From NCBI GenBank assembly GCA_964499205.1, contig CAZCJX010000004.1, positions 653 to 64,652 of the forward strand: DNA of 64,000 bases. The letters run 5' to 3'. The notes beneath the pieces were generated by a model. That model made no database searches and was not told where the DNA came from. It worked only from the letters and a program-made list of their open reading frames with translations. The position numbers were made by a program, and so were the translations under genes. The number at the start of each line of letters is the position of its first letter. Position 1 is the first letter of the stretch. This DNA comes from an uncultured Actinomycetes bacterium (GTDB lineage Bacteria; Chloroflexota; Dormibacteria; Aeolococcales; Aeolococcaceae). Shown here piece by piece: positions 3,574-53,530 of the stretch.

Positions 3574-4665
3574 TCAGCGGCCCCGCAGCAGCGCCAGCAG
3601 CTCGGCCTGGGAGTGCACGTCGAACAGGCTGTAGATGGCGGCGAGGTGGTTGCGCACCGTCCCCGCGCTGAGGAAGAGGTCCTGGGCGATGGTGGGGACG
3701 CGGTCGCCGGCGAGCAGCCGGATGAGGATCTGCCACTGGCGGCTGGAGAGGCGGTTGAGCTCGGGGTGCTCGCTGGCCGAGGGCAGCCGCTCGATCCCCT
3801 CGATGAACCCCGCGCCGCGCAGCTCGGCCACGATGTGCTGCAGCCGCGTCTCCAGGTCGCTGAGCCGGGCGGCGGCGGGCAGCGACTCCTCTGCCTGGTG
3901 GGGCAGCAGCACGAAGCCCACCGGCGGCGGGTCGTCGGCGGTGAGCGGCACCAGGGCGATGACGAGGGGCACCCAGGTGCCGCTCTCGTGGCGCAGCCGC
4001 ACCTTGCGGCAGACGATCTCGCCCACGGCGGCCTCGGCCGCCGCCCTGAGCAGGCCGCCGGCGTCGTCGGGGTGGGCCAGGGCGATCAGGGGGAGACCGA
4101 TGTAGTCCTCCTGGGTGCCGCCCAGGAGGGTGGGCATCTCCGAGCTCACCGAGACGATCCGCCACTGCGCGTCGGCGGTGCCGACCACCAGGGGCTCCAC
4201 CCACACCAGCGGTCCCAAGCGGCGGCCCCTCTCGTCGGCGGGCACCAGCAGCACGACCGCCGAGCGCATGCCGTCGAGGTCGACGGCGCGGGTCCAGTTG
4301 AGCACCTCGTGCACCTTCCCCCGGGCATCGATGAGGCGCCGCCTGGCGCGGTAGGCGTCGACGTTGCCGGCGCTCAGTGCCTCCAGCGAGTGCCGCACCG
4401 CTGCCTGGTCCTCGAAGCCGATCAGCTCCCACCAGAGGCGGCCGGTCACGGCGTCGAGGGCGAGGCCGGCCAGCTCCGCCGCCGCCTGGTTGGCGGCGAC
4501 GATCCGAGCCTCGGGCAGGGTGATGACAGCGGCGGCAATGTCGAGCGACTGCAGCGCCTGGTGGTGCACCAGGGAGGCGCCGGCGAGCAGCTCGGTGCGC
4601 AGCGCAGCGCGCTGTTCCGGCCGCGGCCCGGCCCCGTTCTCCGGCGGCACGCTGCTCCCTGTCAT
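3574..4665 (-). CDS. LuxR-family transcriptional regulator with N-terminal PAS-like sensor region.
   Basis: The C-terminal HTH reads LSSRQWQILIRLLAGDRVPTIAQDLFLSAGTVRNHLAAIYSLFDVHSQAELLALL, the GerE/LuxR signature. The N-terminal ~280 aa are PAS-like. Confidence 0.8.
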   Translation of the reverse strand: MTGSSVPPENGAGPRPEQRAALRTELLAGASLVHHQALQSLDIAAAVITLPEARIVAANQAAAELAGLALDAVTGRLWWELIGFEDQAAVRHSLEALSAGNVDAYRARRRLIDARGKVHEVLNWTRAVDLDGMRSAVVLLVPADERGRRLGPLVWVEPLVVGTADAQWRIVSVSSEMPTLLGGTQEDYIGLPLIALAHPDDAGGLLRAAAEAAVGEIVCRKVRLRHESGTWVPLVIALVPLTADDPPPVGFVLLPHQAEESLPAAARLSDLETRLQHIVAELRGAGFIEGIERLPSASEHPELNRLSSRQWQILIRLLAGDRVPTIAQDLFLSAGTVRNHLAAIYSLFDVHSQAELLALLRGR

Positions 4666-4812
4666 CCGCGCCGATTACGCTACACGCCAGTCCCGGTTTG
4701 CGCGAGAGGGTTCCTGTCCGTTTGGCGCCTGGCAGAAAACAGCGCCATGTCACAGGGCAGATGACGCACTGTCGGAGCGGGGTTCGCCGGACTCGCGCAA
4801 GACTGCAAAGCA

Positions 4813-6585
4813 ATGGGAGGCTCGAAAGACAATGCGTGGGGCCTGCTCGCGCGCATCGCACGGGTGCGCTGGGCGGCCCTCGCGCTGGCCGCATCGTATG
4901 CCGTGTTCGGCCGGGCGCCCGGCACCTCACCGGTCTGGCTGGTGGCCGGCGTCGTGCTGGCGACTGCACTCAACGGCGCAGTCACCCTGCACACCCGCCT
5001 GCCCCGCCTGACCCCCGGCGCGATGGCGGCGGCCACCGTGGCGGCCGACTGCCTGTGGATCGCCGCCGCGGCCGTGGTGGTCAACACCACCCAGCCCGGC
5101 CTCACCCCGGTGATCGGCGCCATCGCGCTGAGCTCCGAGTGCGCGCTGCTCTGGGGCTGGCAGGGCGCGGCGGGGTCGCTGGGCCTCGCCGTGGGCGGCC
5201 TGCTCGGGGTGGGGCTGGTGCAGCGGCACCACCTGGTCGGTCTCGACGGCGGCAGCAGCCTGGTCCACCAGGCGGCCGCCGTGGCGGTGTCGGCGGCCTT
5301 CGCCGCGGTCGCCTCGGCAGTGCTGCGCGAGCAGGGCGGGCAGCTCGTCGACCAGTCGGCGGCGCTGGCCCGGCACGCCCGCACCGACCACCTCACCGGG
5401 CTGGCCAACGACCTCGCCCTGCGCGAGGCGGTCGAGGCCCTGGGCGCGGCGCCGTACGGTCTGCTGCTGGTCGACGTCGACGGCATGCGTTCCACCAACG
5501 TGGTCTACGGGCACCAGGCGGGCGACGAGATGCTGCTGGCCATCGCCCGGGTGCTGCTGGCGCTGTGCCGCCCCGGCGACCTCGCCGTGCGCCTCGGCGA
5601 GGACGAGTTCGTGCTCCTGCTGCCAGGCGCCGGCAAGGCGCGGGCCGAGGCGCTGGCCGAGAAGCTGCGCCTGGCGGTGCAGGGGGTGGCCGTGTCGGCC
5701 GGCGACGTGCGGATCTGCGCCGGGGTGGCCTGGAGCGCCGGCGACGACGGCGTCGATGCCGTGCTGGCGCGCGCCGACGACGCGCTCTTCGCCGCCAAGG
5801 CGCGCGGCGGCGATCTCGTGGTCACCCAGGGCGAGGCGAGCGGCGCCGGGCGGCGGCGCTGGCGCTCGGCGGTGGAGTCGGTGCTCGGCTCCGACCGGGG
5901 CGTCTACCCCGTCTACCAGGCGATCGTGCGCGTCGAGGACGGATGCCCCACCGGCTGGGAGGCGCTGAGCCGGCCGCTCGACTGGCCCGCCGACGCCGGT
6001 GTCGAGGGGATGTTCCTCACCGCCCACCGCATGGGTCGCGGCCGCGACCTCGACTGGCGCTGCCGCCGCAACGCGCTCTCCGAGGCGTCGCGCCTGCCCG
6101 GCGACCTCTACGTCAACGTCAACCTCGGCGCCCTGGCCGACCCGGTGCACGACGTCGACCAGATGCTGCTGCTCTGCGATTGGGCCAAGCGCAACCCGAG
6201 CAGCGTGGTGCTGGAGCTGAGCGAGCGCGACGCCGTCCCCGACCTCGACCGCCTGCGCCGCGTCCTGGCCGGCTACCGCGACGCCGGCTTCCGGGTCGCC
6301 GTCGACGACGTCGGGCAGGGGCAGACCACGCTGGAGCTGCTGCTGGCGGTGCGCCCCGAGTTCGTCAAGCTGGCCCAGCCGCTGGTGCAGGCGGCGCGGG
6401 TGGACACCACGGCGCGGTCGGGGGTGAGCGCCATGGTCGGCTTCGCCCACGACACCGGCGCGGCGGTGGTGGCCGAGGGGGTCGAGGATGACGCCGACCG
6501 CGCCCTCTGCGCCGACACGCGCATCGACCTGGCCCAGGGGTGGCTGTTCGGCCGTCCCCAGCCGGCCGACCGTCTGGCCGGCTGA
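4813..6585 (+). CDS. Membrane-anchored GGDEF-EAL protein (c-di-GMP turnover). The GGDEF motif is degenerate (RLGEDEF).
   Basis: The N-terminus has about 5 TM helices. The GGDEF domain runs HLTGLAN...LLLVDVDGMRSTNVVYGHQAGDEML...RLGEDEFVLLL. The EAL domain has VYQAIV...ELSERD...DDVGQG. It is divergent from the PAS-LuxR gene. Confidence 0.85.
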   Translation: MGGSKDNAWGLLARIARVRWAALALAASYAVFGRAPGTSPVWLVAGVVLATALNGAVTLHTRLPRLTPGAMAAATVAADCLWIAAAAVVVNTTQPGLTPVIGAIALSSECALLWGWQGAAGSLGLAVGGLLGVGLVQRHHLVGLDGGSSLVHQAAAVAVSAAFAAVASAVLREQGGQLVDQSAALARHARTDHLTGLANDLALREAVEALGAAPYGLLLVDVDGMRSTNVVYGHQAGDEMLLAIARVLLALCRPGDLAVRLGEDEFVLLLPGAGKARAEALAEKLRLAVQGVAVSAGDVRICAGVAWSAGDDGVDAVLARADDALFAAKARGGDLVVTQGEASGAGRRRWRSAVESVLGSDRGVYPVYQAIVRVEDGCPTGWEALSRPLDWPADAGVEGMFLTAHRMGRGRDLDWRCRRNALSEASRLPGDLYVNVNLGALADPVHDVDQMLLLCDWAKRNPSSVVLELSERDAVPDLDRLRRVLAGYRDAGFRVAVDDVGQGQTTLELLLAVRPEFVKLAQPLVQAARVDTTARSGVSAMVGFAHDTGAAVVAEGVEDDADRALCADTRIDLAQGWLFGRPQPADRLAG

Positions 6586-36557: not shown

Positions 36558-37685
36558 GTGCTCGACCGCCTGCACATGGCCCCCAGCCCCCTCCCGCGCC
36601 ACCTCGCAGAACGGGTCGCCGAGACCCACACCTGGCTCGACGAGGTGGCGGCAGAGGAGCGTGCGCTGGCACCCTGGACCGGCACGTTGAGGCGAGTCAT
36701 GGGTGCCCGCGTGGTGGGTGCTTCGACCGCCATCGAGGGGTTCTCAGCAACTCATCAGGACACGGTGCGGCTCATCGAGGGGCAGAGGTCTGCGGCGGCA
36801 CCGCCGGAAACCGAGGAGGCGATTCGGGATTACCGCCGAGCCATGGATCGCGTCGCCGGGCTTGCGGTCGACACCGAGTTCGAATGGCGTCCGTCGGTGG
36901 TCCGCGATCTCCATTTCCTGGTGACCGCGGGAAGTCGGCGCAGCCAGCCCGGGAGATGGCGCGATGAGGAGGTCCACGTGCGCCGCGGTGCGGACGCTAT
37001 TCCATACCAGGCACCGCCGGCTGACGACGTGCCCCGCCTCATGCGCAGTGCTGCCGAGTACCAGTCATGCAGCGACGACGACGCACTGATCCGCGCCGCC
37101 ATGGTGCAACTGCACGTGGCCGCGGTGCACCCGTTCCTCGACGGCAACGGCCGCACGGCTCGGGTGCTGCAGTCGCTGGTGCTGGCACGGGCTCGGCTGC
37201 TGCCCCTCGACGTCTGCTCCATCGAGACGTACCTCGCCGCCAACACCGATCAGTACTACGCGGCGCTGCGCACCACCAACGGCGTGCATCGGCTCGGTGG
37301 CGCCGAGTACTACGATCCAACGCGGAGCGCCGTTCCCTGGCTCGAGTTCTGCCTCGAGGCGCACATCGAAAGCAGCAAGGCACTCGCCGAGGAGATGCGG
37401 ACGGCCCGGAGGCGCACGACATTCTGTCGTGACCTGGCACGTCGCCATGGCCTTCCAGATCGGATCGCGCAGGTGCTCGACCAGGCACTGGTCGAGCTGC
37501 CAATCAGCAACGAAAGCCACCGGCAACGGCAGAACGTTTCCATGCCGATGGCCACCAAGGACCTGGGGTCCCTGGTCGACCTCGGTCTCCTGCGACGGCT
37601 CGGCGCCGGCAGGTCGACGCGCTACGAGGCCTCGCCACGGCTCAGAGCGATGTGGCGAAGAGCCGAGCGGGCTCGTCCCGACTAG
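36558..37685 (+). CDS. Fic/Doc-family protein (probable AMPylase) with C-terminal winged-helix region.
   Basis: Canonical Fic motif HPFLDGNGRTARV. GTG start. An alternative ATG lies at 36576. About 370 aa. Confidence 0.85.
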   Translation: MLDRLHMAPSPLPRHLAERVAETHTWLDEVAAEERALAPWTGTLRRVMGARVVGASTAIEGFSATHQDTVRLIEGQRSAAAPPETEEAIRDYRRAMDRVAGLAVDTEFEWRPSVVRDLHFLVTAGSRRSQPGRWRDEEVHVRRGADAIPYQAPPADDVPRLMRSAAEYQSCSDDDALIRAAMVQLHVAAVHPFLDGNGRTARVLQSLVLARARLLPLDVCSIETYLAANTDQYYAALRTTNGVHRLGGAEYYDPTRSAVPWLEFCLEAHIESSKALAEEMRTARRRTTFCRDLARRHGLPDRIAQVLDQALVELPISNESHRQRQNVSMPMATKDLGSLVDLGLLRRLGAGRSTRYEASPRLRAMWRRAERARPD

Positions 37686-38149
37686 ACCGCCGAGGCGCGC
37701 AGGGCTTCGAGCACCTCGTCGGCGTGGCCGGCGGGCTTGACGTTCTCCCACACGCGCTCGATGGCCCCGTTGGGACCGATGAGGAAGGTGGTGCGGAGGA
37801 TGCCCATGTACTTGTGCCCGTTGTACTCGCGCTCGCCCCAGACGCCGTAGGCCTCCAACGCCACGTGCTCGGGATCGGCGACCAGGGTGAAGGGGATGCC
37901 GAGCTTCTCGACCCAGGCGTCGTGCGACGCGACGTCGTCGCCGCTCACGCCGACGACGACGGCGTCGAGGTCCTCGATGGTCTTGGCTTCGTCACGGAAG
38001 CCCTGTGCTTCGATCGTTCAACCAGGGGTGTCGTCTTTGGGATAGAACCAGAGCACCACCCGCCGGCCGCGCAGGTCGGAGAGCTTCAGGGTGCCGCCGC
38101 CGTTGGTGGGCAGCTCGAAGTCGGGGGCGAGGTCGCCGGCGCGCGGCAT
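37682..38149 (-). CDS. bcp: Peroxiredoxin Bcp/PrxQ with an in-frame TGA at the peroxidatic-cysteine codon. Candidate selenoprotein, or a pseudogene.
   Basis: Two track ORFs ([14 protein letters not shown]...[10 protein letters not shown], and [12 protein letters not shown]...) are in the same frame. They are separated only by the TGA at 38018-38020. The read-through gives [20 protein letters not shown], matching the Bcp PxDxTPGCT motif with Sec at the Cp position. Confidence 0.6.
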
Positions 38150-38160
38150 GGTGGTCGGGC

Positions 38161-40242
38161 TCACGACGCGGCCGCCGCGTGTTCCTTGGAGTGCGCTTCG
38201 ATGAGGGGCTGCGCGATGTGCGCGGGCACCTCCTCGTAATGCGACGTCGCCATGGAGTAGCGCCCGCGCCCCTGGGTGGCGGCGCGGAGGTCGATGGGGA
38301 AGGTGTACATCTCGGCGAGAGGCACTTGTGCGGTCACCTCGGTGCGGCCGTCGCCGATGGGGTTCATGCCCCCGACGCGGCCGCGCTTGGCGTTCAGGAT
38401 ACCGATCACATCGCCCATCAGTCGTTCGGGGACGACGACGTGCACGTCCATGATGGGTTCGAGCAGCACCGGGTGGGCCTCCTGCACGGCGCGGCGCATG
38501 GCCATCGAGCCGGCGATCTGGAAGGCGATGTCCTTGCCGTCGACGGGATGGGTCGAGCCGTCGACCAGGCGCACCTTGACGTCGACGATGGGATAGCCGG
38601 CGACGGCGCCCTGCTCCATGGTCTGCTTCACGCCCTTCTCCACCGAGGGGCGGAACTGCTGGGGGATGGAGCCGCCGAAGATCTTGTCCTCCCACTCGTA
38701 GCCGCTCCCGCGGGGCAGCGGCTCGATCTCGATGGTGCAGTCGCCGTAGAGCCCGGCGCCGCCCGACTGCTTCTTGTACTTGTTGGCGATCCTGGCGGTG
38801 CCGGTGATGGTCTCGCGGTAGGCGACCTTGGGGACCGACAGGGTGGCGTCGACGCCGTACTTGCGCTTGATCCGCTCCAGCGCGACGTCGAGGTGCACGT
38901 CGCCGAGGCCGTGCAGCACCTGCTCCTTGGTGACCTCGTCGCGCTCCATCGAGAAGGTCGGGTCCTCCTCGGCGTAGCGCTGCAGCGCCGAGTTGATCTT
39001 GTCCTCGTCGCCCTTGGTCCTGGCGTGCACCGCCATGGCGTACAGCGGCGCCGGGTACTCGATGGGCGGCATCTTCACCGGCGCCGACTTGTCGCACAGC
39101 GTGTCGCCGGTCATGGTGACCGCCAGCTTGGTGGCGACGCCGATGTCGCCGGCGACGATCTCGCCCGCTTGGACGATCTGCTTGCCCATCGGCTGGCCGA
39201 GCTGGGCGAGCCGCTCCTCGACGCCGCGATTGGCATTCAAAGGATGCGTGTCGGGCCGCACCGCGCCGCGCAGCACCCGGAAGTAGGTGATCTTGCCGAA
39301 GGGGTCGATGGTCGACTTGAAGACGTGCGCCACCAGCGGCCCCGCGGGATCGCACTCGATCTCGATCTCGCCACCCTTGGCATCAACTGCCTGGTGCACG
39401 CGCTCCTTGGGCGAGGGCAGGTAGCGGTTGATGCAGTCGAGGATGAACGAGGCGCCCTTCTCCTGCAGCGCCGCCGCGGGGACGATGGGCACGAGGCTGC
39501 CGCGCAGCGCCGCGGTGTGCATCGCCGCGTGCACCTCGTCGTCGGTGAGCTCGGTGCCCTCGAGGTACTTCTCCAGCAGCGCGTCGTCGGTCTCGGCAGC
39601 GGCGTCGACCAGGGCGCTGTGCGCCCGCTCGATCTCCTCGCGATGGTCCTCGGGGAACTCACCGTCGACCAGCCTGCCGCCGTCGAACTGGTGGGCCCGG
39701 TCGTTGACCAGGTCGACCAGGCCGCGGAACTGCTCGTGCGACCCGATCGGCACCGCGACGGCGATCGCCTTGCGGCCGAAGGCTTCGCGGATGGCGTCGA
39801 CGGTGGCCTCGTAGGAGACGTTCTCCTTGTCCATCTTGTTGACCACGATCAACGCCGGCAGCCCCGCGGCGGCGATGCGCTCCCAGGCAAGCTCCGCGCC
39901 CACGGGCACCTCGGTGCCCGCCGACCCGGCGCTGACCACCAGGATCGCCGCGTCGGCGGCGGCCAGCGCCTGTGACACCTCGCCGGCGAAGTCCTGGAAC
40001 CCCGGGGTGTCAATGAGGTTGATGCGCACGTCCATCCAATCGCAGTGCGCCACCGCGGCGGAGATGGAGATCGAGCGCTTCTGCTCCTCCGGCTCGTGGT
40101 CGAGGATCGACGTGCCCTGGTCGGTCGAGCCGAGGCGCTGGGTGGCGCCGGCGGTGTGGAGCAGTGCTTCGCACAGCGACGTCTTGCCGTCGTGGCTGTG
40201 GCCGAGGACGGCGACGCAGCGGATGCGGTCTGGCGTGGGCAT
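38161..40242 (-). CDS. Elongation factor G paralogue (EF-G2-like translational GTPase).
   Basis: G1 motif [17 protein letters not shown], and full EF-G domains II-V. 693 aa. Its stop is 11 nt before the bcp start. Confidence 0.9.
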
Positions 40243-40251
40243 GGGCTCTTC

Positions 40252-42380: not shown

Positions 42381-43058
42381 ATGGCCGCCATCCCCGTCCT
42401 CGACCGCGAGCACTTCAGCGACCGCGCCGAGCAGTTGGAGGCGACCAGCCGGCGGCTGGCCGGTGAGGCGGAGATCCCCGCCGACGTCTGGCAGCTGGTC
42501 GACACCATCGCCGACGAGGTGTTGGCGATCTCGCGGGACGACCTGGCCCGCATGGACCCGTACCTCTTCCTCGCCCTGCAGCAGGGCGCGCTGGCCGCGT
42601 ACCGCGCCATGCACGAGCCCGACCCCGCCAGCGAGCGGCGCCAGCTGCGCATCGGCCTGGAGCGGATGCGCCAGGCGCTGCGCGACGTCGCCGAGGAGGC
42701 GCCGGTGCGCGACGCGCGGCCGGCCAAGGAGGTGGCCCGCTGGCTGGCCGACACCCTGCACGTCTCCCAGGCGGCGCTGGCCGAGCTGGCCGGCACCGCG
42801 CCGCGGACCTTCCAGCGCTGGATCAGCGCCCAGGACGCGAGCGCGCCGCAGGGCGAGGAGGAGCGGCGCCTGCGGACCGTGGCCCGTATCGCCAACCAGC
42901 TGCGCCACGCGCTGAGCGGTCCCGGGGTGCTCGCCTGGTTCCGGCGTCCCCGACCGGAGCTGCAGGGACGCTCCCCCGCCGAGCTGCTCGCCGACCCGCT
43001 GGCCACGCCCGACCTGCTGGCTCTGGCCGCCGCGGCGCGGTCGAGCAACGCGGCGTAG
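42381..43058 (+). CDS. Xre/MbcA/ParS-like antitoxin (DUF2384 C-terminal domain) with an N-terminal extension.
   Basis: The C-terminal RLRTVARIANQLRHALSGPGVLAWFRRPRPELQGRSPAELLADP matches the toxin-neutralising domain of Res-Xre / MbcA antitoxins. It ends 27 nt before the RES gene. Confidence 0.8.
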   Translation: MAAIPVLDREHFSDRAEQLEATSRRLAGEAEIPADVWQLVDTIADEVLAISRDDLARMDPYLFLALQQGALAAYRAMHEPDPASERRQLRIGLERMRQALRDVAEEAPVRDARPAKEVARWLADTLHVSQAALAELAGTAPRTFQRWISAQDASAPQGEEERRLRTVARIANQLRHALSGPGVLAWFRRPRPELQGRSPAELLADPLATPDLLALAAAARSSNAA

Positions 43059-43085
43059 CGGCGGTCGGTCGGACGCCGCCGAGCC

Positions 43086-43709
43086 TTGCCGCGCGAGGTC
43101 GTCGCCTATCGCCTGGCCGCCTGGGACACGCCGTTCTGGGTCAACGCCAACCGCTCGTCGGGACGCTACAACCGCGCCGGCGTGGCGGCGACGCAGTACC
43201 TCTGCCTGCATCCCCTCGGCCCGTGGGCGGAGTACATGCGCCGCGAGTCGCTGCGCACTGCGGACGACATCGCCGAGGTTCGGCAGCGCATCTGGGCTGC
43301 GCGCGTGGTGTTGCCCGACGACGCCGGCGAGGCGGTGCTCAACTTCGCCACCGCGCGCTCGTTCGGTCTCGAACCGCGTGCTCTGGTGGCCGACGACCAC
43401 GACGCCTGCCAGCGGTTCGCCGAGCGCTGGCGCGGCGAGCATCCCGGCGGAGTGCTGCGGGTGCCCAGCGCGGCGCTGCCGGGCACGCAGAACCTGGTGC
43501 TGTTGGGCCCGCGGCTGCTGGTCGACTACCAGGTGGCGCTGTGGGACGGCGACCTCGACGTGCCCGCCGCGGTGATCGCCGACCGCGCGCAGCCGCCGGC
43601 GTCGCTGCTGCCGTTGGTGCGGCATCGCGGCATGGCCCATGCGGAATACGAGGCGTGGCGGCGCGGGCGCGCCTTCGTGTTCAGCGAGCCGGCGTTTCCC
43701 ACGCCCTGA
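43086..43709 (+). CDS. RES-domain toxin (NAD+-targeting, MbcT/ParT/Res-like).
   Basis: R-E-S triad context: GRYNRAG (Arg), PLGPWAEYM (Glu), VPSAALPGTQNLVL (Ser). It starts with AYRL like family members. Confidence 0.85.
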   Translation: MPREVVAYRLAAWDTPFWVNANRSSGRYNRAGVAATQYLCLHPLGPWAEYMRRESLRTADDIAEVRQRIWAARVVLPDDAGEAVLNFATARSFGLEPRALVADDHDACQRFAERWRGEHPGGVLRVPSAALPGTQNLVLLGPRLLVDYQVALWDGDLDVPAAVIADRAQPPASLLPLVRHRGMAHAEYEAWRRGRAFVFSEPAFPTP

Positions 43710-50509: not shown

Positions 50510-53500
50510 TCAGCTGCTCAGCGAGCACGTCGCGGAGGTGTATCCACTACCGGTCGCGGTGACCGTGGCCGACTTGTTGGCGGCAGTCGCTGTCACGCTG
50601 AACGAACCGGTCGGCGAGCCGGTCGACTGCAGCGAGGCGCTCGTCGGTCCCGGGGTCGTGTTGAGGTTGAAGTGGGAGGCGTCCGTGCCGGTCAGATTGA
50701 TGGTGAACGGGAAGCCGGGGCTCTGGTAGGTCGCCGGGTTGCCGTACGTGTCGTTGGCGATGGTCACCGTCGACGTCCACGTGTGTCCGTTGCTCAGGGC
50801 GCCGGGGCAGGCGGTGGTGAACGAGAGGCTGCTCGCCGCAGAGTTGATGAACACGGTGCCCGAGCCGGTGTGCGACGGCGACTGCGTGTCGGTCGCGGTC
50901 AGGGTCTGCGTGCCGGCGTGGTACAGGGTCGCCTGCAGTGTCGTGGTGGCGACACCGCTGCTGAAGCTGACCGTGCCCGCCGGCAACGTCGGCGCGTGGC
51001 CGCTGGGGCTGTTCGCCGGGCCGCTCCAGTTGATCGTCTGGTTGCTGGCGGTGTAGGTGGTGACGGTGTTGCCGTACTGGTCCTGCGCGGTCAGCGTCAC
51101 GCTGAACGCCGATCCCGCGTTCTGCGGCCCCGCCATGCTGACGCCGTACTTGGAGAGAGCGCCAGCGGTGTTGGTCATGGCATAGGTGACCGAGGTCAGG
51201 CCGGTCGCCGAGGCGGTCACGTTGTAGCTGCCCGTCGTGGTGTTGGCGGTGAAGGTGGAGGACGTCGCCCGACCGTTGCTGCCGGTGGTTGCCGTGGTCG
51301 TCGCGGTGCCGTTGGCGAAGGTGCCGGAGGCGCCCGACGACGGAGCCGTGAAGGTCACGGTCACACCCGACACGGGGTTGCCGTAGGTGTCCGACACGGA
51401 TGCCACCAGGGGGTTGGCGAAGGCGGTGCTGACGGCCGCCGACTGCGGTGAGCCGGAGAACGCGGCCAGGGTGGTCGCCGTCCCCGCGTTGTTGGTCAGG
51501 GAGAAGGTGACCGTGTTGGTCCCCGTGGCGCTCGCCGACACCGTGTAGCTGCCCGACGTCGTGTTGGCGGTGAACGTCGAGGACGTGGCACGACCGTTGC
51601 TGGCGGTGCTCGCCGTCGTGGTCGCGGTGCTGGTGTTGGCGAAGGTCCCGGACGCTCCCGACGCGGGCGCGGTGAAGGTCACCGTCGCACCCGAGACGGC
51701 GTTGCCGTAGGTGTCGACCACGGAGGCGACGAGCGGGTTGGTGAAGGCCGTCGCCACTGTGGCCGACTGCCCGGAGCCGGAGACCACGGCGATCGTCTTC
51801 GCCGCGGCTGCGGTGTTGGTCATCGAGAAGGTGACGGTGTTGGTTCCCGACGCGCTCGCCGACACGGTGTAGCTGCCGGCGGCCGTGTTGGCGGTGAACG
51901 TCGAGGACGTGGCCCGGCCGTTGCTGCCGGTGCTCGCCGTCGTCGTCGCCGTGCTGTTGGCGAAGGTGCCGGATGCGCCCGACGCGGGCGCGGTGAAGGT
52001 CACCGTCACACCGGACACGGGGTTGCCGTACGTGTCGGACACCGACGCCACCAGGGCGCTGCCGAAGGCGGTGTTGACGGTCGTCGACTGCGGAGAACCG
52101 GAGAACACGGCGATGGTCGACGCCGATCCGGAGGTGTTGGTCAGGGAGAAGGTGACCGTGTTGGTGCCCGCGGCGTTCGCCGACACCGTGTAGGTGCCCG
52201 CGGTGGTGTTGGCGGTGAACGTCGAGGAGGTGGCCTGGCCGCTCGCGTTGGTGGTCGCGGTCGTGGTCGCCGTGCTGTTGGCGAAGGTGCCGGACGCGCC
52301 GGACGCGGGCGCGGTGAAGGTCACCGTCGCGCCCGATACCGGGTTGCCGTAGGTGTCGACCACCGAGGCGACCAGCGGATTGCCGAAGGCCGAGGCGACC
52401 GCGGTCGACTGGTTCGACCCGGAGACGACGGCGAGCGTCTTCGCCGCGCCTGCCGTGTTAGTCAGGGAGAAGGTGACGGTGTTTGTGCCCGCGGCGCTCG
52501 CTGACACCGTGTACGCCCCCGCGGTCGTGTTGGCGGTGAACGCCGACGACGTGGCCTGACCGCTGGCGTTACTGCTCGCCGTCGTGGTCGCACTGCTGTT
52601 GGCGAAGGTCCCCGATGCACCCGACGCGGGCGCGGTGAAAGTGACGGTCACACCCGACACCGGGTTGCCGTACGCGTCCACCACCGACGCCACCAGGGGA
52701 TTGGTGAACGCGGTATTGACGGTTGCCGACTGACCCGAACCCGACACCACCGCCGCAGTCTGGGCTGCCGCCGCGTTGACGGTGAAGGTCACCGACCCGG
52801 TCACGCCGGTCGCGGCGGAGTCGGTCGCGGTCAGGGCGTTGCTGCCCGCGGCGTAGGCGGTGAAGGTCGAGGAGGGCGACGCGACGCCGTTGCTGAAGGT
52901 CACGGCGCTCGAGGGGTACGAGGGCGCATGGCCGGAGGGGCTGTTGGCCAGGCCCGACCACGTCAGCGTCTTCGCGCCGGTGTAGGTGGTGTCGGTGGAG
53001 CCGTTCACCTTGGCGGTGATGGTGTTGACGGTGATCGCGGTGCCGGCGGTGTACGGCGAGGCCGAGAGCGCGATGGTGAACGACGGCGTCGAGGTCGTCG
53101 CCGAGGTGGTGATGGCGCTGCTCTGCCAGTTGGAGAGAACGGCCATGACCGAATAGGCATAGGTGGTACCGGCGGTCAGGCCGGTGTCCTGGCAGGAGGT
53201 CACGGTCGAGGCCACCGTGCAGACGGTGGTGGCGGTGCCGGGGCTGGTCCGCGTCACCTTGTACTGCGCGCCGGTGAGCTGGGTTGTCGGAAGCGTCCAG
53301 CCAACGGTGATCGCGCCGCTGCCGTTGACGGTTGCGGTGGGCGTGGTCGGCGCGGACAGGCTGGCGGCGACGGCCTGCGCCTGGTTGCCGCCCGGGTTGA
53401 GGACAGTGATGGTCCAGAAGGCGAGACCGGCGACCGCGCCGGCCACCAGCAGTCCACCGGCGACGAGAAGTGCGCGACGCAGCAGCGCAGCGCGGAGCCA

Positions 53501-53530
53501 GATGGTGCGGACAGCGACCTGTGCGCTCAC
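50510..53530 (-). CDS. Large cell-surface protein (1005 aa) with N-terminal signal anchor and six or more tandem bacterial Ig-like repeats; putative adhesin or fibre-associated protein.
   Basis: GTG start overlapping the upstream gene stop (GTGA). N-terminal TM LLRRALLVAGGLLVAGAVAGLAFW. The repeats read ...VVSGSGQSATV..FTNPLVASVVDTYGNPVSGATVTFTAPASGASGTFAN...YTVSASA.GTNTVTFSLTN. Confidence 0.85.
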   Translation of the reverse strand: MSAQVAVRTIWLRAALLRRALLVAGGLLVAGAVAGLAFWTITVLNPGGNQAQAVAASLSAPTTPTATVNGSGAITVGWTLPTTQLTGAQYKVTRTSPGTATTVCTVASTVTSCQDTGLTAGTTYAYSVMAVLSNWQSSAITTSATTSTPSFTIALSASPYTAGTAITVNTITAKVNGSTDTTYTGAKTLTWSGLANSPSGHAPSYPSSAVTFSNGVASPSSTFTAYAAGSNALTATDSAATGVTGSVTFTVNAAAAQTAAVVSGSGQSATVNTAFTNPLVASVVDAYGNPVSGVTVTFTAPASGASGTFANSSATTTASSNASGQATSSAFTANTTAGAYTVSASAAGTNTVTFSLTNTAGAAKTLAVVSGSNQSTAVASAFGNPLVASVVDTYGNPVSGATVTFTAPASGASGTFANSTATTTATTNASGQATSSTFTANTTAGTYTVSANAAGTNTVTFSLTNTSGSASTIAVFSGSPQSTTVNTAFGSALVASVSDTYGNPVSGVTVTFTAPASGASGTFANSTATTTASTGSNGRATSSTFTANTAAGSYTVSASASGTNTVTFSMTNTAAAAKTIAVVSGSGQSATVATAFTNPLVASVVDTYGNAVSGATVTFTAPASGASGTFANTSTATTTASTASNGRATSSTFTANTTSGSYTVSASATGTNTVTFSLTNNAGTATTLAAFSGSPQSAAVSTAFANPLVASVSDTYGNPVSGVTVTFTAPSSGASGTFANGTATTTATTGSNGRATSSTFTANTTTGSYNVTASATGLTSVTYAMTNTAGALSKYGVSMAGPQNAGSAFSVTLTAQDQYGNTVTTYTASNQTINWSGPANSPSGHAPTLPAGTVSFSSGVATTTLQATLYHAGTQTLTATDTQSPSHTGSGTVFINSAASSLSFTTACPGALSNGHTWTSTVTIANDTYGNPATYQSPGFPFTINLTGTDASHFNLNTTPGPTSASLQSTGSPTGSFSVTATAANKSATVTATGSGYTSATCSLSS
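50980..52770 (-). repeat. Six near-identical ~291-294-bp coding tandem repeats (Ig-like domains) inside the 50510-53530 gene.
   Basis: Protein repeats of ~97 aa with more than 80% identity. The nucleotide blocks (e.g. gtgaaggtcaccgtc...ggttgccgtaggtgtc) recur with this period. Confidence 0.8.

What the first reader, a model, noticed from the sequence alone, without database searches (positions are those of the whole stretch)
37682..38160. Bcp/PrxQ peroxiredoxin with in-frame UGA at the peroxidatic cysteine and a SECIS-like hairpin: candidate selenoprotein.
- The two adjacent track ORFs are in the same frame, interrupted only by TGA at 38018-38020.
- That TGA sits exactly where Bcp/PrxQ peroxiredoxins carry the peroxidatic Cys: [10 protein letters not shown]-[UGA]-TIEAQGFRD versus the canonical [20 protein letters not shown].
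- UGA at the catalytic Cys of a redox enzyme is the classical signature of selenocysteine. Sec-containing Prx-like proteins are an established bacterial selenoprotein family.
- On the mRNA a hairpin follows 15 nt after the UGA: GGCUUC-CGUGAC-GAAGCC, with an alternative GAAGC-ACAGG-GCUUC. It places a G-U dinucleotide in the apical loop at +23/+24, the position conserved in bacterial SECIS elements.
- The resolving Cys five residues downstream is Gln here.
- The alternative is a nonsense pseudogene of bcp.
Basis: partly seen in the sequence, partly recalled or inferred. Interest (0 to 1): 0.8.

Follow-up and report, generated by a model that had tools for sequence, protein, structure and literature searches.

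The report
Selenocysteine peroxiredoxin (Bcp/PrxQ) gene
This is almost certainly a real gene for a peroxide-detoxifying enzyme that reads a UGA stop codon as the rare amino acid selenocysteine; the enzyme family is already known to do this, so the news is only that it occurs in a little-studied soil phylum and is mis-annotated as two fragments.

Summary
A 155-codon minus-strand ORF (38149-37682) is a Bcp/PrxQ peroxiredoxin with one in-frame TGA (38020-38018) at the peroxidatic-Cys position (PxxxTxxU).

The selenoprotein reading is strongly supported:
- The TGA is kept in 10 orthologs from independent assemblies, two of them Candidatus Dormiibacterota MAGs.
- The 108-112 codons after the TGA stay open and evolve under purifying selection (dN/dS 0.10-0.35 at dS 0.28-0.74).
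- A 6-bp hairpin lies 15 nt after the UGA (37985-38002, loop CGUGAC). It pairs in all 10 orthologs, with compensatory changes at two pairs.
- The hairpin meets all four published bacterial SECIS constraints and is absent from the two closest Cys orthologs.
- Codons rare in this genome cluster around the TGA.
- TGA is otherwise an ordinary stop here.

The selenocysteine machinery could not be checked. Nothing of it lies in the 64 kb window or in the related loci.

Peroxiredoxin (COG1225/Bcp, TxxU) is an established bacterial selenoprotein family. This is therefore a new member of a known kind. Its distinguishing points are the lineage and the absence of any cysteine (a "1-Sec" form).

The parts
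37682..38149 (-). Complete coding sequence of the Sec-containing Bcp/PrxQ peroxiredoxin. It has 155 codons: ATG at 38149-38147, Sec-UGA at codon 44, and stop TAG at 37684-37682.
   Evidence: Translation. Pfam PF00578 at E=3e-38. NCBIfam NF006960 at 144 bits against a cutoff of 140. PDB Bcp hits. Orthologs have the same length and frame.
38018..38020 (-). In-frame UGA read as selenocysteine (U44), at the peroxidatic position of the PxxxTxxC motif. The motif residues are P37 at 38041-38039 and T41 at 38029-38027.
   Evidence: TGA sits at the same codon in L001, L002, L003, L083, L084, L085, L166, L167, L168 and L169. It aligns with the Cys of solved Bcp structures. TGA ends 16 of 23 ordinary genes in the window.
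37985..38002 (-). Bacterial SECIS core. It is a 6-bp stem (mRNA nt 19-24 paired with 31-36, counting U of UGA as 1) with a 6-nt apical loop CGUGAC at 37996-37991. The loop G-U is at 37995-37994.
   Evidence: All pairs form in 10 orthologs, and two pairs show compensatory changes. None of 500 shuffles reached the observed pairing or covariation score. RNAalifold predicts the same helix independently. The hairpin energy is -7.8 kcal/mol alone and the region folds at -12.7. Cys orthologs L082 and L086 lack the 3' arm.
37974..38013 (-). Possible lower stem of the SECIS: UCGA at nt 8-11 paired with UCGA at nt 44-47, enclosing the core hairpin. Support is weak.
   Evidence: It appears in the MFE and RNAalifold structures. 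Three of its four pairs form in only 8 of 10 orthologs, with no covariation. Both arms encode Ile-Glu, so protein constraint may explain the match.
38021..38026 (-). Rare-codon context immediately 5' of the UGA: CCU GGU. In window genes CCU is 3.1% of Pro codons and GGU is 5.1% of Gly codons.
   Evidence: Codon usage over 10,242 codons. GGU before the UGA is kept in all 10 clade orthologs, whereas the Cys orthologs use GGG or GGC. Further rare codons follow the UGA: GAA 6.6%, GCA 3.7%, CGU 3.2%.
37793..37795 (-). Codon for Arg119, the conserved active-site arginine of peroxiredoxins.
   Evidence: It aligns with the Arg of GIERSTFLI in 5enu and 5iox. It lies 75 codons downstream of the UGA, so the enzyme can only be active if the UGA is read through.
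38161..40245 (-). EF-G paralog gene ending 11 nt upstream of the bcp start codon. It is probably co-transcribed. It is context only, not part of the recoding device.
   Evidence: NCBIfam NF009381 at 842 bits; the SelB model TIGR00475 scores only 44 against a cutoff of 242. The EF-G then bcp order is kept in Sec and Cys orthologs alike.

Best explanation
The two adjacent ORFs are one gene for a selenocysteine-containing Bcp/PrxQ-type peroxiredoxin. The organism is a high-GC soil bacterium closest to Candidatus Dormiibacterota MAGs.

**Recoding (inferred from the anatomy).** During translation the UGA at codon 44 is not read as stop. The hairpin 15 nt downstream, with a 6-bp stem and loop CGUGAC presenting G-U, acts as a bacterial SECIS. 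It recruits SelB·GTP·Sec-tRNA(Sec), which inserts selenocysteine.

**Product (inferred).** The 155-residue protein carries the active site P37-x3-T41-x2-U44 plus R119. It reduces peroxides through a selenolate to selenenic acid cycle.

**Recycling (inferred).** The protein has no resolving Cys; position +5 is Gln and there is no other Cys. The selenenic acid must therefore be recycled by an external thiol reductant, thioredoxin or a low-molecular-weight thiol, as in 1-Cys peroxiredoxins.

**What is shown and what is not.**
- Shown here: the conserved UGA, the covarying hairpin, purifying selection on the downstream part, and family membership.
- Inferred only: Sec rather than another residue at the UGA, SelB dependence, peroxidase activity, and the identity of the reductant.
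For: 1. **Position of the UGA.** It sits at the peroxidatic-Cys codon of a protein that otherwise passes the Bcp models.
2. **Conservation of the UGA.** The same TGA occurs in 10 orthologs from independent assemblies at roughly 77-93% amino-acid identity. These include two GTDB species representatives labelled Candidatus Dormiibacterota and JGI contigs of 1.03 Mb and 614 kb.
3. **Downstream part is under selection.** There are no further stops or frameshifts in the 108-112 codons after the TGA. dN/dS there is 0.10-0.35 at dS 0.28-0.74.
4. **Hairpin.** Stem 19-24/31-36 is paired in all 60 sequence-by-pair cells. Pair 21:34 is CG six times, GC three times and AU once. Pair 20:35 is GC four, GU four and AU two. 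None of 500 shuffles reached this, and sliding the partners by one to three columns dropped pairing to 10-57%. RNAalifold finds the same helix.
5. **Published bSECIS constraints (PMC13188914, Fig 2A) are all met.** The loop is 6 nt (allowed 3-9). The stem is 6 bp (allowed 4-16). G is in loop position 2, followed by U. The UGA-to-loop spacing is 21 nt (allowed 16-37). The region MFE is -12.7 and the hairpin alone is -7.8 kcal/mol (limit -7.5).
6. **Cys orthologs lack the hairpin.** L082 (75% identity) and L086 carry TGC and do not have the 3' arm.
7. **Rare codons.** Six codons, each at most 6.6% of its family, cluster within 14 codons around the UGA and are largely conserved (each kept in 7-10 of the 10 orthologs). 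This points to selection at the RNA level.
8. **TGA is a normal stop here.** It ends 16 of 23 window genes, so the code is not reassigned genome-wide.
9. **Wider family.** Sixty of the Bcp loci fetched from other phyla also carry TGA at this codon. Most of these show a downstream hairpin at about the same distance, though not in every fold.
10. **Literature.** Peroxiredoxin (COG1225 Bcp, motif TxxU) is listed as an established bacterial selenoprotein family (PMC9312934, PMC13188914, PMC1794560).
Against: - **No Sec machinery found.** No selA, selB, selD or tRNA-Sec lies in the 64 kb window or in any related flank. The rest of the genome could not be reached, so the Sec trait of this organism is inferred, not shown.
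- **Stability alone is unremarkable.** The z-score against shuffles is -0.86, and 34 of 200 shuffles fold at least as well.
- **No Rfam match.** No Rfam family matches the region.
- **Loop constrained by protein.** The loop sequence encodes the conserved Phe-Arg-Asp motif, so part of its conservation reflects the protein.
- **Limited depth.** Covariation rests on 10 related sequences and two pairs.
- **No literature link.** No paper in the searchable library links Dormibacterota with selenocysteine.
Confidence: 0.9

Rival explanations
1. The gene is a nonsense pseudogene of bcp. TGC or TGT mutated to TGA, translation stops after 43 residues, and the rest is decaying.
For: - Gene callers split the locus into a 43-aa ORF and an 88-aa ORF.
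- No Sec machinery was seen in the available sequence.
Against: - The same TGA is kept in 10 diverged orthologs.
- dN/dS downstream is 0.10-0.35 at dS up to 0.74, with no second stop or indel.
- The essential Arg119 is conserved.
- A covarying hairpin and a rare-codon cluster sit exactly at the TGA.
Confidence: 0.02
2. The UGA is read through, but not as selenocysteine. Possibilities are near-cognate or suppressor decoding as Cys or Trp stimulated by the hairpin, or Cys delivered by a Sec-like pathway.
For: - Sequence alone cannot name the inserted residue.
- The Sec machinery is unverified in this lineage.
- The position needs a Cys-like nucleophile, and Cys would also work.
Against: - The hairpin fits the SelB-type bSECIS model in loop size, G-U placement and spacing (PMC13188914).
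- The same codon is TGA in many Bcp genes from lineages whose labels match groups listed as selenoprotein-rich, such as Geobacteraceae and Deltaproteobacteria (PMC1794560).
- To my knowledge no bacterial system is known that inserts Cys at a single UGA with a local hairpin; this was not checked here.
- TGA is the main stop codon of this genome.
Confidence: 0.06
3. The TGA is an assembly or sequencing artefact, or two separate small proteins are really made: an N-terminal 43-residue peptide and a C-terminal 88-residue fragment.
For: Public gene calls list both fragments as separate proteins.
Against: - The TGA recurs in NCBI MAGs, JGI metagenomes and Logan assemblies from different samples.
- Neither fragment holds a complete thioredoxin fold or both catalytic residues.
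- The 68 codons between the TGA and the GTG start of the downstream ORF are conserved in frame.
Confidence: 0.02

Closest known systems
Sec-containing peroxiredoxin family of bacteria ("Peroxiredoxin (Prx)", COG1225 Bcp / PF00578, motif TxxU; example WP_011365628.1; PMC9312934, PMC13188914, PMC1794560)
   Same: - The domain is the same.
- Sec replaces the peroxidatic Cys in PxxxTxxU.
- The SECIS lies inside the coding region just after the UGA.
- Cys homologs are abundant.
- TGA forms from Geobacteraceae, Deltaproteobacteria, Binatia, Acidobacteriota, Planctomycetales and Fimbriimonadales came up in my own scans.
   Different: - The lineage here matches Candidatus Dormiibacterota MAGs, a phylum I could not find linked to Sec in the literature.
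- 50 of the 60 TGA forms keep the resolving Cys (U-x4-C). This clade has Gln there and no Cys at all.
- The SECIS sequence differs from those of the other clades.
PrxU, the experimentally shown Sec-peroxiredoxin of Eubacterium acidaminophilum (Sohling et al. 2001, cited in PMC9312934; NCBIfam NF040737 peroxi_PrxU)
   Same: It is a peroxiredoxin with Sec at the peroxidatic position.
   Different: It belongs to a different Prx subfamily. The window protein scores 55 bits against a cutoff of 270 on the PrxU model, while it passes the Bcp model.
E. coli fdhF SECIS and the consensus bacterial SECIS model (bSECISearch; PMC13188914, Fig 2A)
   Same: - It is a stem-loop immediately 3' of the UGA.
- A small apical loop has G then U near its 5' side.
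- The spacing falls within 16-37 nt.
   Different: - There is no sequence similarity to the fdhF element.
- The GU is at +26/+27, against +23/+24 in fdhF (U of UGA = 1; the fdhF numbering is from my own knowledge).
- No bulged U is evident.
- SelB binding is not tested.
1-Cys type Bcp/PrxQ peroxiredoxins (Cys orthologs P0001-P0004 of the same clade, CTIEAQ/CTIEAK)
   Same: - Same clade and same gene neighbourhood, downstream of the EF-G paralog.
- Same lack of a resolving Cys at +5.
   Different: They use TGC and have no SECIS hairpin. L082 keeps only the 5' half, including the rare CGU codon.

Membership tests
Bcp/PrxQ peroxiredoxin (PF00578 AhpC-TSA; NCBIfam NF006960) | Thioredoxin-fold AhpC/TSA domain scoring above the curated cut-offs | tested here: met
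   PF00578 scores 131 bits against a cutoff of 26. NF006960 scores 144 against 140. Solved Bcp structures match at E=5e-34 to 1e-28 over residues 8-154. All tests used Cys substituted for the UGA.
Bcp/PrxQ peroxiredoxin (PF00578 AhpC-TSA; NCBIfam NF006960) | Active-site motif PxxxTxxC plus the conserved Arg | tested here: met
   P37-KDD-T41-PG-U44 and R119 align with the motif residues of 5enu and 5iox. Sec stands in place of Cys.
Bcp/PrxQ peroxiredoxin (PF00578 AhpC-TSA; NCBIfam NF006960) | Resolving Cys five residues after the peroxidatic residue (defines the atypical 2-Cys subgroup only) | tested here: not met
   The residue is Gln49 and there is no Cys anywhere in the protein. The same holds for all 10 clade orthologs and their Cys relatives. 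This places the protein in the 1-Cys-type subgroup, not outside the family.
Bcp/PrxQ peroxiredoxin (PF00578 AhpC-TSA; NCBIfam NF006960) | Thiol-dependent peroxidase activity | not testable with these tools
   This needs an enzyme assay.
Bacterial selenoprotein family Peroxiredoxin (TxxU) | In-frame UGA aligned with a conserved catalytic Cys of homologs (Sec/Cys pair) | tested here: met
Bacterial selenoprotein family Peroxiredoxin (TxxU) | UGA-containing homologs in other organisms, with the region after the UGA conserved as protein | tested here: met
   Ten clade orthologs plus about 50 TGA forms from other phyla. dN/dS downstream is 0.10-0.35.
Bacterial selenoprotein family Peroxiredoxin (TxxU) | bSECIS meeting the consensus model: loop 3-9 nt, stem 4-16 bp, G in the first two loop positions, 16-37 nt from the UGA, MFE at or below -7.5 kcal/mol | tested here: met
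   The loop is 6 nt (CGUGAC), the stem 6 bp, the spacing 21 nt, and the energies -7.8 (hairpin) and -12.7 (region) kcal/mol. Covariation is shown. The criteria come from PMC13188914.
Bacterial selenoprotein family Peroxiredoxin (TxxU) | Sec-decoding machinery (selA, selB, selC, selD) in the same genome | not testable with these tools
   None lies in the window or in any flank.
Bacterial selenoprotein family Peroxiredoxin (TxxU) | Selenium actually incorporated at the UGA | not testable with these tools
   This needs 75Se labelling or mass spectrometry.
PrxU-type Sec-peroxiredoxin (NCBIfam NF040737) | Score above the equivalog cut-off | tested here: not met
   The score is 55.5 bits against a cutoff of 270.
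Rfam RNA families (all 4227 models searched) | Covariance-model match at or near the gathering score | tested here: not met
   No hit at gathering score in the window. Only chance-level hits to unrelated families appear in 37920-38070.

The most novel reading that the evidence does not exclude
The most novel reading not excluded has three linked parts.
- Candidatus Dormiibacterota, a soil phylum with no selenocysteine link in the literature I could search, has the Sec-decoding trait.
- It uses that trait for a Cys-free "1-Sec" Bcp, whose selenenic acid must be resolved by an external thiol.
- The SECIS inside the coding region visibly shapes the protein. Residue 55 switches among Ala, Val, Ser and Leu, and residue 50 switches Gly to Asp, in step with base pairing.

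A far less likely tail (about 2%) is that read-through here does not use SelB, for instance through the co-transcribed EF-G paralog. The same EF-G then bcp order in the Cys orthologs argues against that.
Probability: 0.5. Interest if true: 0.4.

Novelty: new member of a known kind. Interest (0 to 1): 0.3.

Why it matters
- **Annotation.** The gene is called as two truncated "peroxiredoxin Q/BCP" ORFs in public gene sets. The clusters for the two fragments hold 17 and 7 near-identical members. Read correctly, it restores a full antioxidant enzyme.
- **Biology of the lineage.** It implies that this lineage depends on selenium and carries the full Sec machinery. That is a testable prediction for Dormibacterota genomes.
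- **SECIS evolution.** The locus is a clean small example of an RNA element embedded in a coding sequence constraining both codon choice and amino-acid choice.
- **Limits.** It does not change what is known about selenoproteins in general.

Tried and rejected
Pair 13:21 is broken in 4 of 7 orthologs and shows no covariation. Rejected.
- **Rfam search for a SECIS.** Nothing at gathering score. The permissive search gave only chance hits such as EAV_LTH and H19.
- **Stability as evidence.** The z-score is -0.86, which is uninformative in this 73% GC sequence.
- **Search for Sec machinery.**
  - ARAGORN found no tRNA in the window or in 11 related loci.
  - Pfam scans of 40 window ORFs found no SelA, SelB or SelD domains.
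  - tblastn with E. coli SelA, SelB and SelD against all fetched loci hit only an unrelated SelD next to a Cys-form bcp in L015, plus weak hits to other proteins in unrelated Cys-form loci. In the loci fetched later it hit only the GTPase domain of the EF-G paralog.
- **EF-G paralog as a hidden SelB.** Rejected. It passes the EF-G model NF009381 at 842 bits, while the SelB model scores 44 against 242. It also precedes the Cys orthologs.
- **Other selenoprotein genes.** A scan for in-frame TGA with coding signal on both sides found only bcp in the window and the 10 related loci scanned.
- **Literature link between Dormibacterota and Sec.** None found.
- **Look-up of the full-length protein written with U.** The tool refuses U.
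Full report
**1. The observation**

- On the minus strand an ATG at 38149 opens a 155-codon frame ending at TAG 37684-37682. It has one internal stop, TGA at 38020-38018.
- With Cys at that codon the protein matches PF00578 AhpC-TSA (E=3e-38) and passes the NCBIfam Bcp equivalog NF006960 (144 bits against 140).
- It aligns over residues 8-154 with solved Bcp structures. The TGA falls opposite their peroxidatic Cys, and Arg119 falls opposite the catalytic Arg.
- The protein has no cysteine at all. The usual resolving position (+5) is Gln.
- The upstream neighbour is an EF-G paralog whose stop codon lies 11 nt before the bcp ATG. A Fic-domain gene converges from downstream.

**2. Is the TGA real and conserved?**

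- A protein search showed full-length Cys homologs at up to 75% identity. It also showed a 91-residue C-terminal fragment at 93% identity.
- That fragment's contig (L001) carries the same gene, split by TGA at the same codon.
- The single genome scan returned two Candidatus Dormiibacterota MAGs as nearest relatives, and both have the TGA. The single metagenome scan added three more.
- Exact look-ups showed that public gene sets hold the window's 43-aa and 88-aa pieces as separate proteins. Their clusters have 17 and 7 members, which JGI names "peroxiredoxin Q/BCP".
- Two of those members lie on contigs of 1.03 Mb and 614 kb with the same gene order.
- In total 10 orthologs from independent assemblies carry the TGA. 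Each has an uninterrupted 108-112 codon frame after it.
- Neighbouring genes are 78-94% identical to the window's. This places the window in the lineage of the MAGs labelled Dormiibacterota.

**3. Pseudogene or recoding?**

- Nei-Gojobori estimates for the part after the TGA give dN/dS of 0.10-0.35 at dS 0.28-0.74 among the TGA-bearing orthologs. That is similar to, or tighter than, the part before it.
- A dead 3' part would drift towards dN/dS of 1 and collect stops and indels. None is seen.
- TGA ends 16 of 23 ordinary genes in the window, so the code is not reassigned genome-wide.
- A scan for other in-frame TGAs with coding signal on both sides found only this one, in the window and the 10 related loci scanned.

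**4. The RNA element**

- Counting the U of UGA as 1, nt 19-24 (GGCUUC) pair with nt 31-36 (GAAGCC) around the loop CGUGAC. In window coordinates this is 38002-37985.
- Across 10 orthologs every pair forms. Pair 21:34 is C-G six times, G-C three times and A-U once. Pair 20:35 is G-C four times, G-U four times and A-U twice.
- None of 500 shuffles reached the observed pairing or covariation score. Sliding the partners by one to three columns dropped pairing to 10-57%.
- RNAalifold recovers the helix on its own.
- The covarying positions link a synonymous site (the third base of Gly50) with the first base of codon 55. The amino acid there changes among Ala, Val, Ser and Leu in step with the RNA. 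In L167 and L169 a Gly50 to Asp change (GGC to GAC) keeps pairing because position 35 is U.
- The element meets the four published constraints of the bacterial SECIS model as quoted in PMC13188914 (Fig 2A):
  - loop of 6 nt;
  - stem of 6 bp;
  - G in loop position 2, followed by U;
  - 21 nt between the UGA and the loop, with energies of -7.8 kcal/mol for the hairpin and -12.7 for the region.
- The two closest Cys orthologs lack the 3' arm.
- Codon usage adds an independent signal. CCU, GGU, GAA, GCA, CGU and GAA are each 3-7% of their codon families in this genome. All lie within 14 codons around the UGA and are largely conserved (each kept in 7-10 of the 10 orthologs).
- Weak points:
  - Thermodynamic stability alone is not unusual (z = -0.86).
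  - No Rfam family matches.
  - Part of the loop's conservation follows from the Phe-Arg-Asp motif it encodes.

**5. What could not be shown**

- The Sec machinery was not found in any sequence I could reach.
- There is no tRNA in the window or in the related loci.
- None of 40 window ORFs has a SelA, SelB or SelD domain.
- tblastn with E. coli SelA, SelB and SelD found nothing relevant.
- The window is 64 kb of a 74-kb MAG contig. The rest of the genome is out of reach with these tools.
- The identity of the inserted residue and its SelB dependence are therefore inferences from the anatomy.

**6. Comparison with what is known**

- Reviews list "Peroxiredoxin (Prx), COG1225 (Bcp)/PF00578, motif TxxU" among the prokaryotic selenoprotein families with an experimentally verified member (PMC9312934, PMC13188914).
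- A 2006 survey already counted 12 such genes and five independent Cys-to-Sec conversions (PMC1794560).
- My own scans agree. Sixty of the fetched Bcp loci have TGA at this codon. They come from Acidobacteriota, Deltaproteobacteria, Geobacteraceae, Binatia, Planctomycetales and Fimbriimonadales. Most show their own hairpin at a similar distance, though not in every fold.
- That proportion is inflated, because one of the scan patterns was WFYPKDDT.
- The gene is not a PrxU-type protein (55 bits against 270).
- Three things differ here:
  - the lineage, since no paper in the searchable library links Dormibacterota with Sec;
  - the complete absence of cysteine, where 50 of the 60 TGA forms keep U-x4-C;
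  - a clade-specific SECIS sequence.

**7. Verdict**

I put about 0.9 on a true Sec-containing Bcp/PrxQ.
- The gene is a new member of a known selenoprotein family, so interest is modest (0.3).
- Its practical value is correcting a recurrent split-gene annotation. It also predicts that these soil bacteria carry selABCD and depend on selenium.

Noticed in passing
window 38161-40245 (-); also L082 355-2430, L166 7909-9990, L167 7902-9983: An EF-G paralog (NF009381, 842 bits) ends 11 nt before the bcp start codon. The EF-G then bcp order is kept throughout the clade, in Sec and Cys forms alike. This suggests an operon pairing a translation GTPase paralog with a peroxiredoxin. Why they are paired is unexplained.
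   Followed up: partly
codon 34 of bcp, window 38050-38048 (-); all fetched Bcp loci: The residue 10 positions before the peroxidatic site is Trp in 59 of 60 TGA forms but in only 3 of 62 Cys forms, which mostly have Tyr. The sample is biased, because one scan pattern was WFYPKDDT, so an unbiased test is needed.
   Followed up: partly
L082 2600-2660 (Cys ortholog, Logan SRR34153336): This TGC ortholog keeps the 5' half of the SECIS (GGAUUCCGUGAC, including the rare CGU codon) but has lost the 3' arm. In a neighbour-joining tree it sits next to the Sec form L002, inside the Sec clade (52% bootstrap). This looks like a recent Sec-to-Cys reversal.
   Followed up: partly
window 37930-37964 (-): A second, longer hairpin (GUCGUCGUCG...CGACGACGUC) lies 57-91 nt after the UGA. 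It is built from complementary Val (GUC) and Asp (GAC) codons of the [10 protein letters not shown] motif. It gave a chance Rfam hit (EAV_LTH, E=0.021). It lies outside the 16-37 nt SECIS range and is probably a by-product of codon usage.
   Followed up: no
window 37682-38149 (-) in public gene sets: Gene callers split this gene into a 43-aa ORF and an 88-aa ORF. The 90%-identity clusters of the two pieces hold 17 and 7 members, many named "peroxiredoxin Q/BCP" by JGI. The selenoprotein is being missed systematically.
   Followed up: yes
window 50510-53530 (-): This 1006-aa ORF carries Big_1 and CarboxypepD_reg repeats. Its antisense frame also looks coding, with GC3 above 0.9 and TAG roughly every 53 or 106 codons, which mirrors the repeat period.
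   Followed up: no
window 42381-43709 (+): A RES-domain gene (43086-43709) is preceded by a 225-aa ORF with no Pfam match. This may be a RES/Xre-type toxin-antitoxin pair. L167 has a similar pair at 4628-5784.
   Followed up: no
window 36558-37685 (+); L167 10555-11616: A Fic-domain gene follows bcp. In the window and in L083 it is convergent, and its stop overlaps the bcp stop by 4 nt. In L167 and L168 a different, co-directional Fic gene occupies the spot. The site downstream of bcp appears variable.
   Followed up: no
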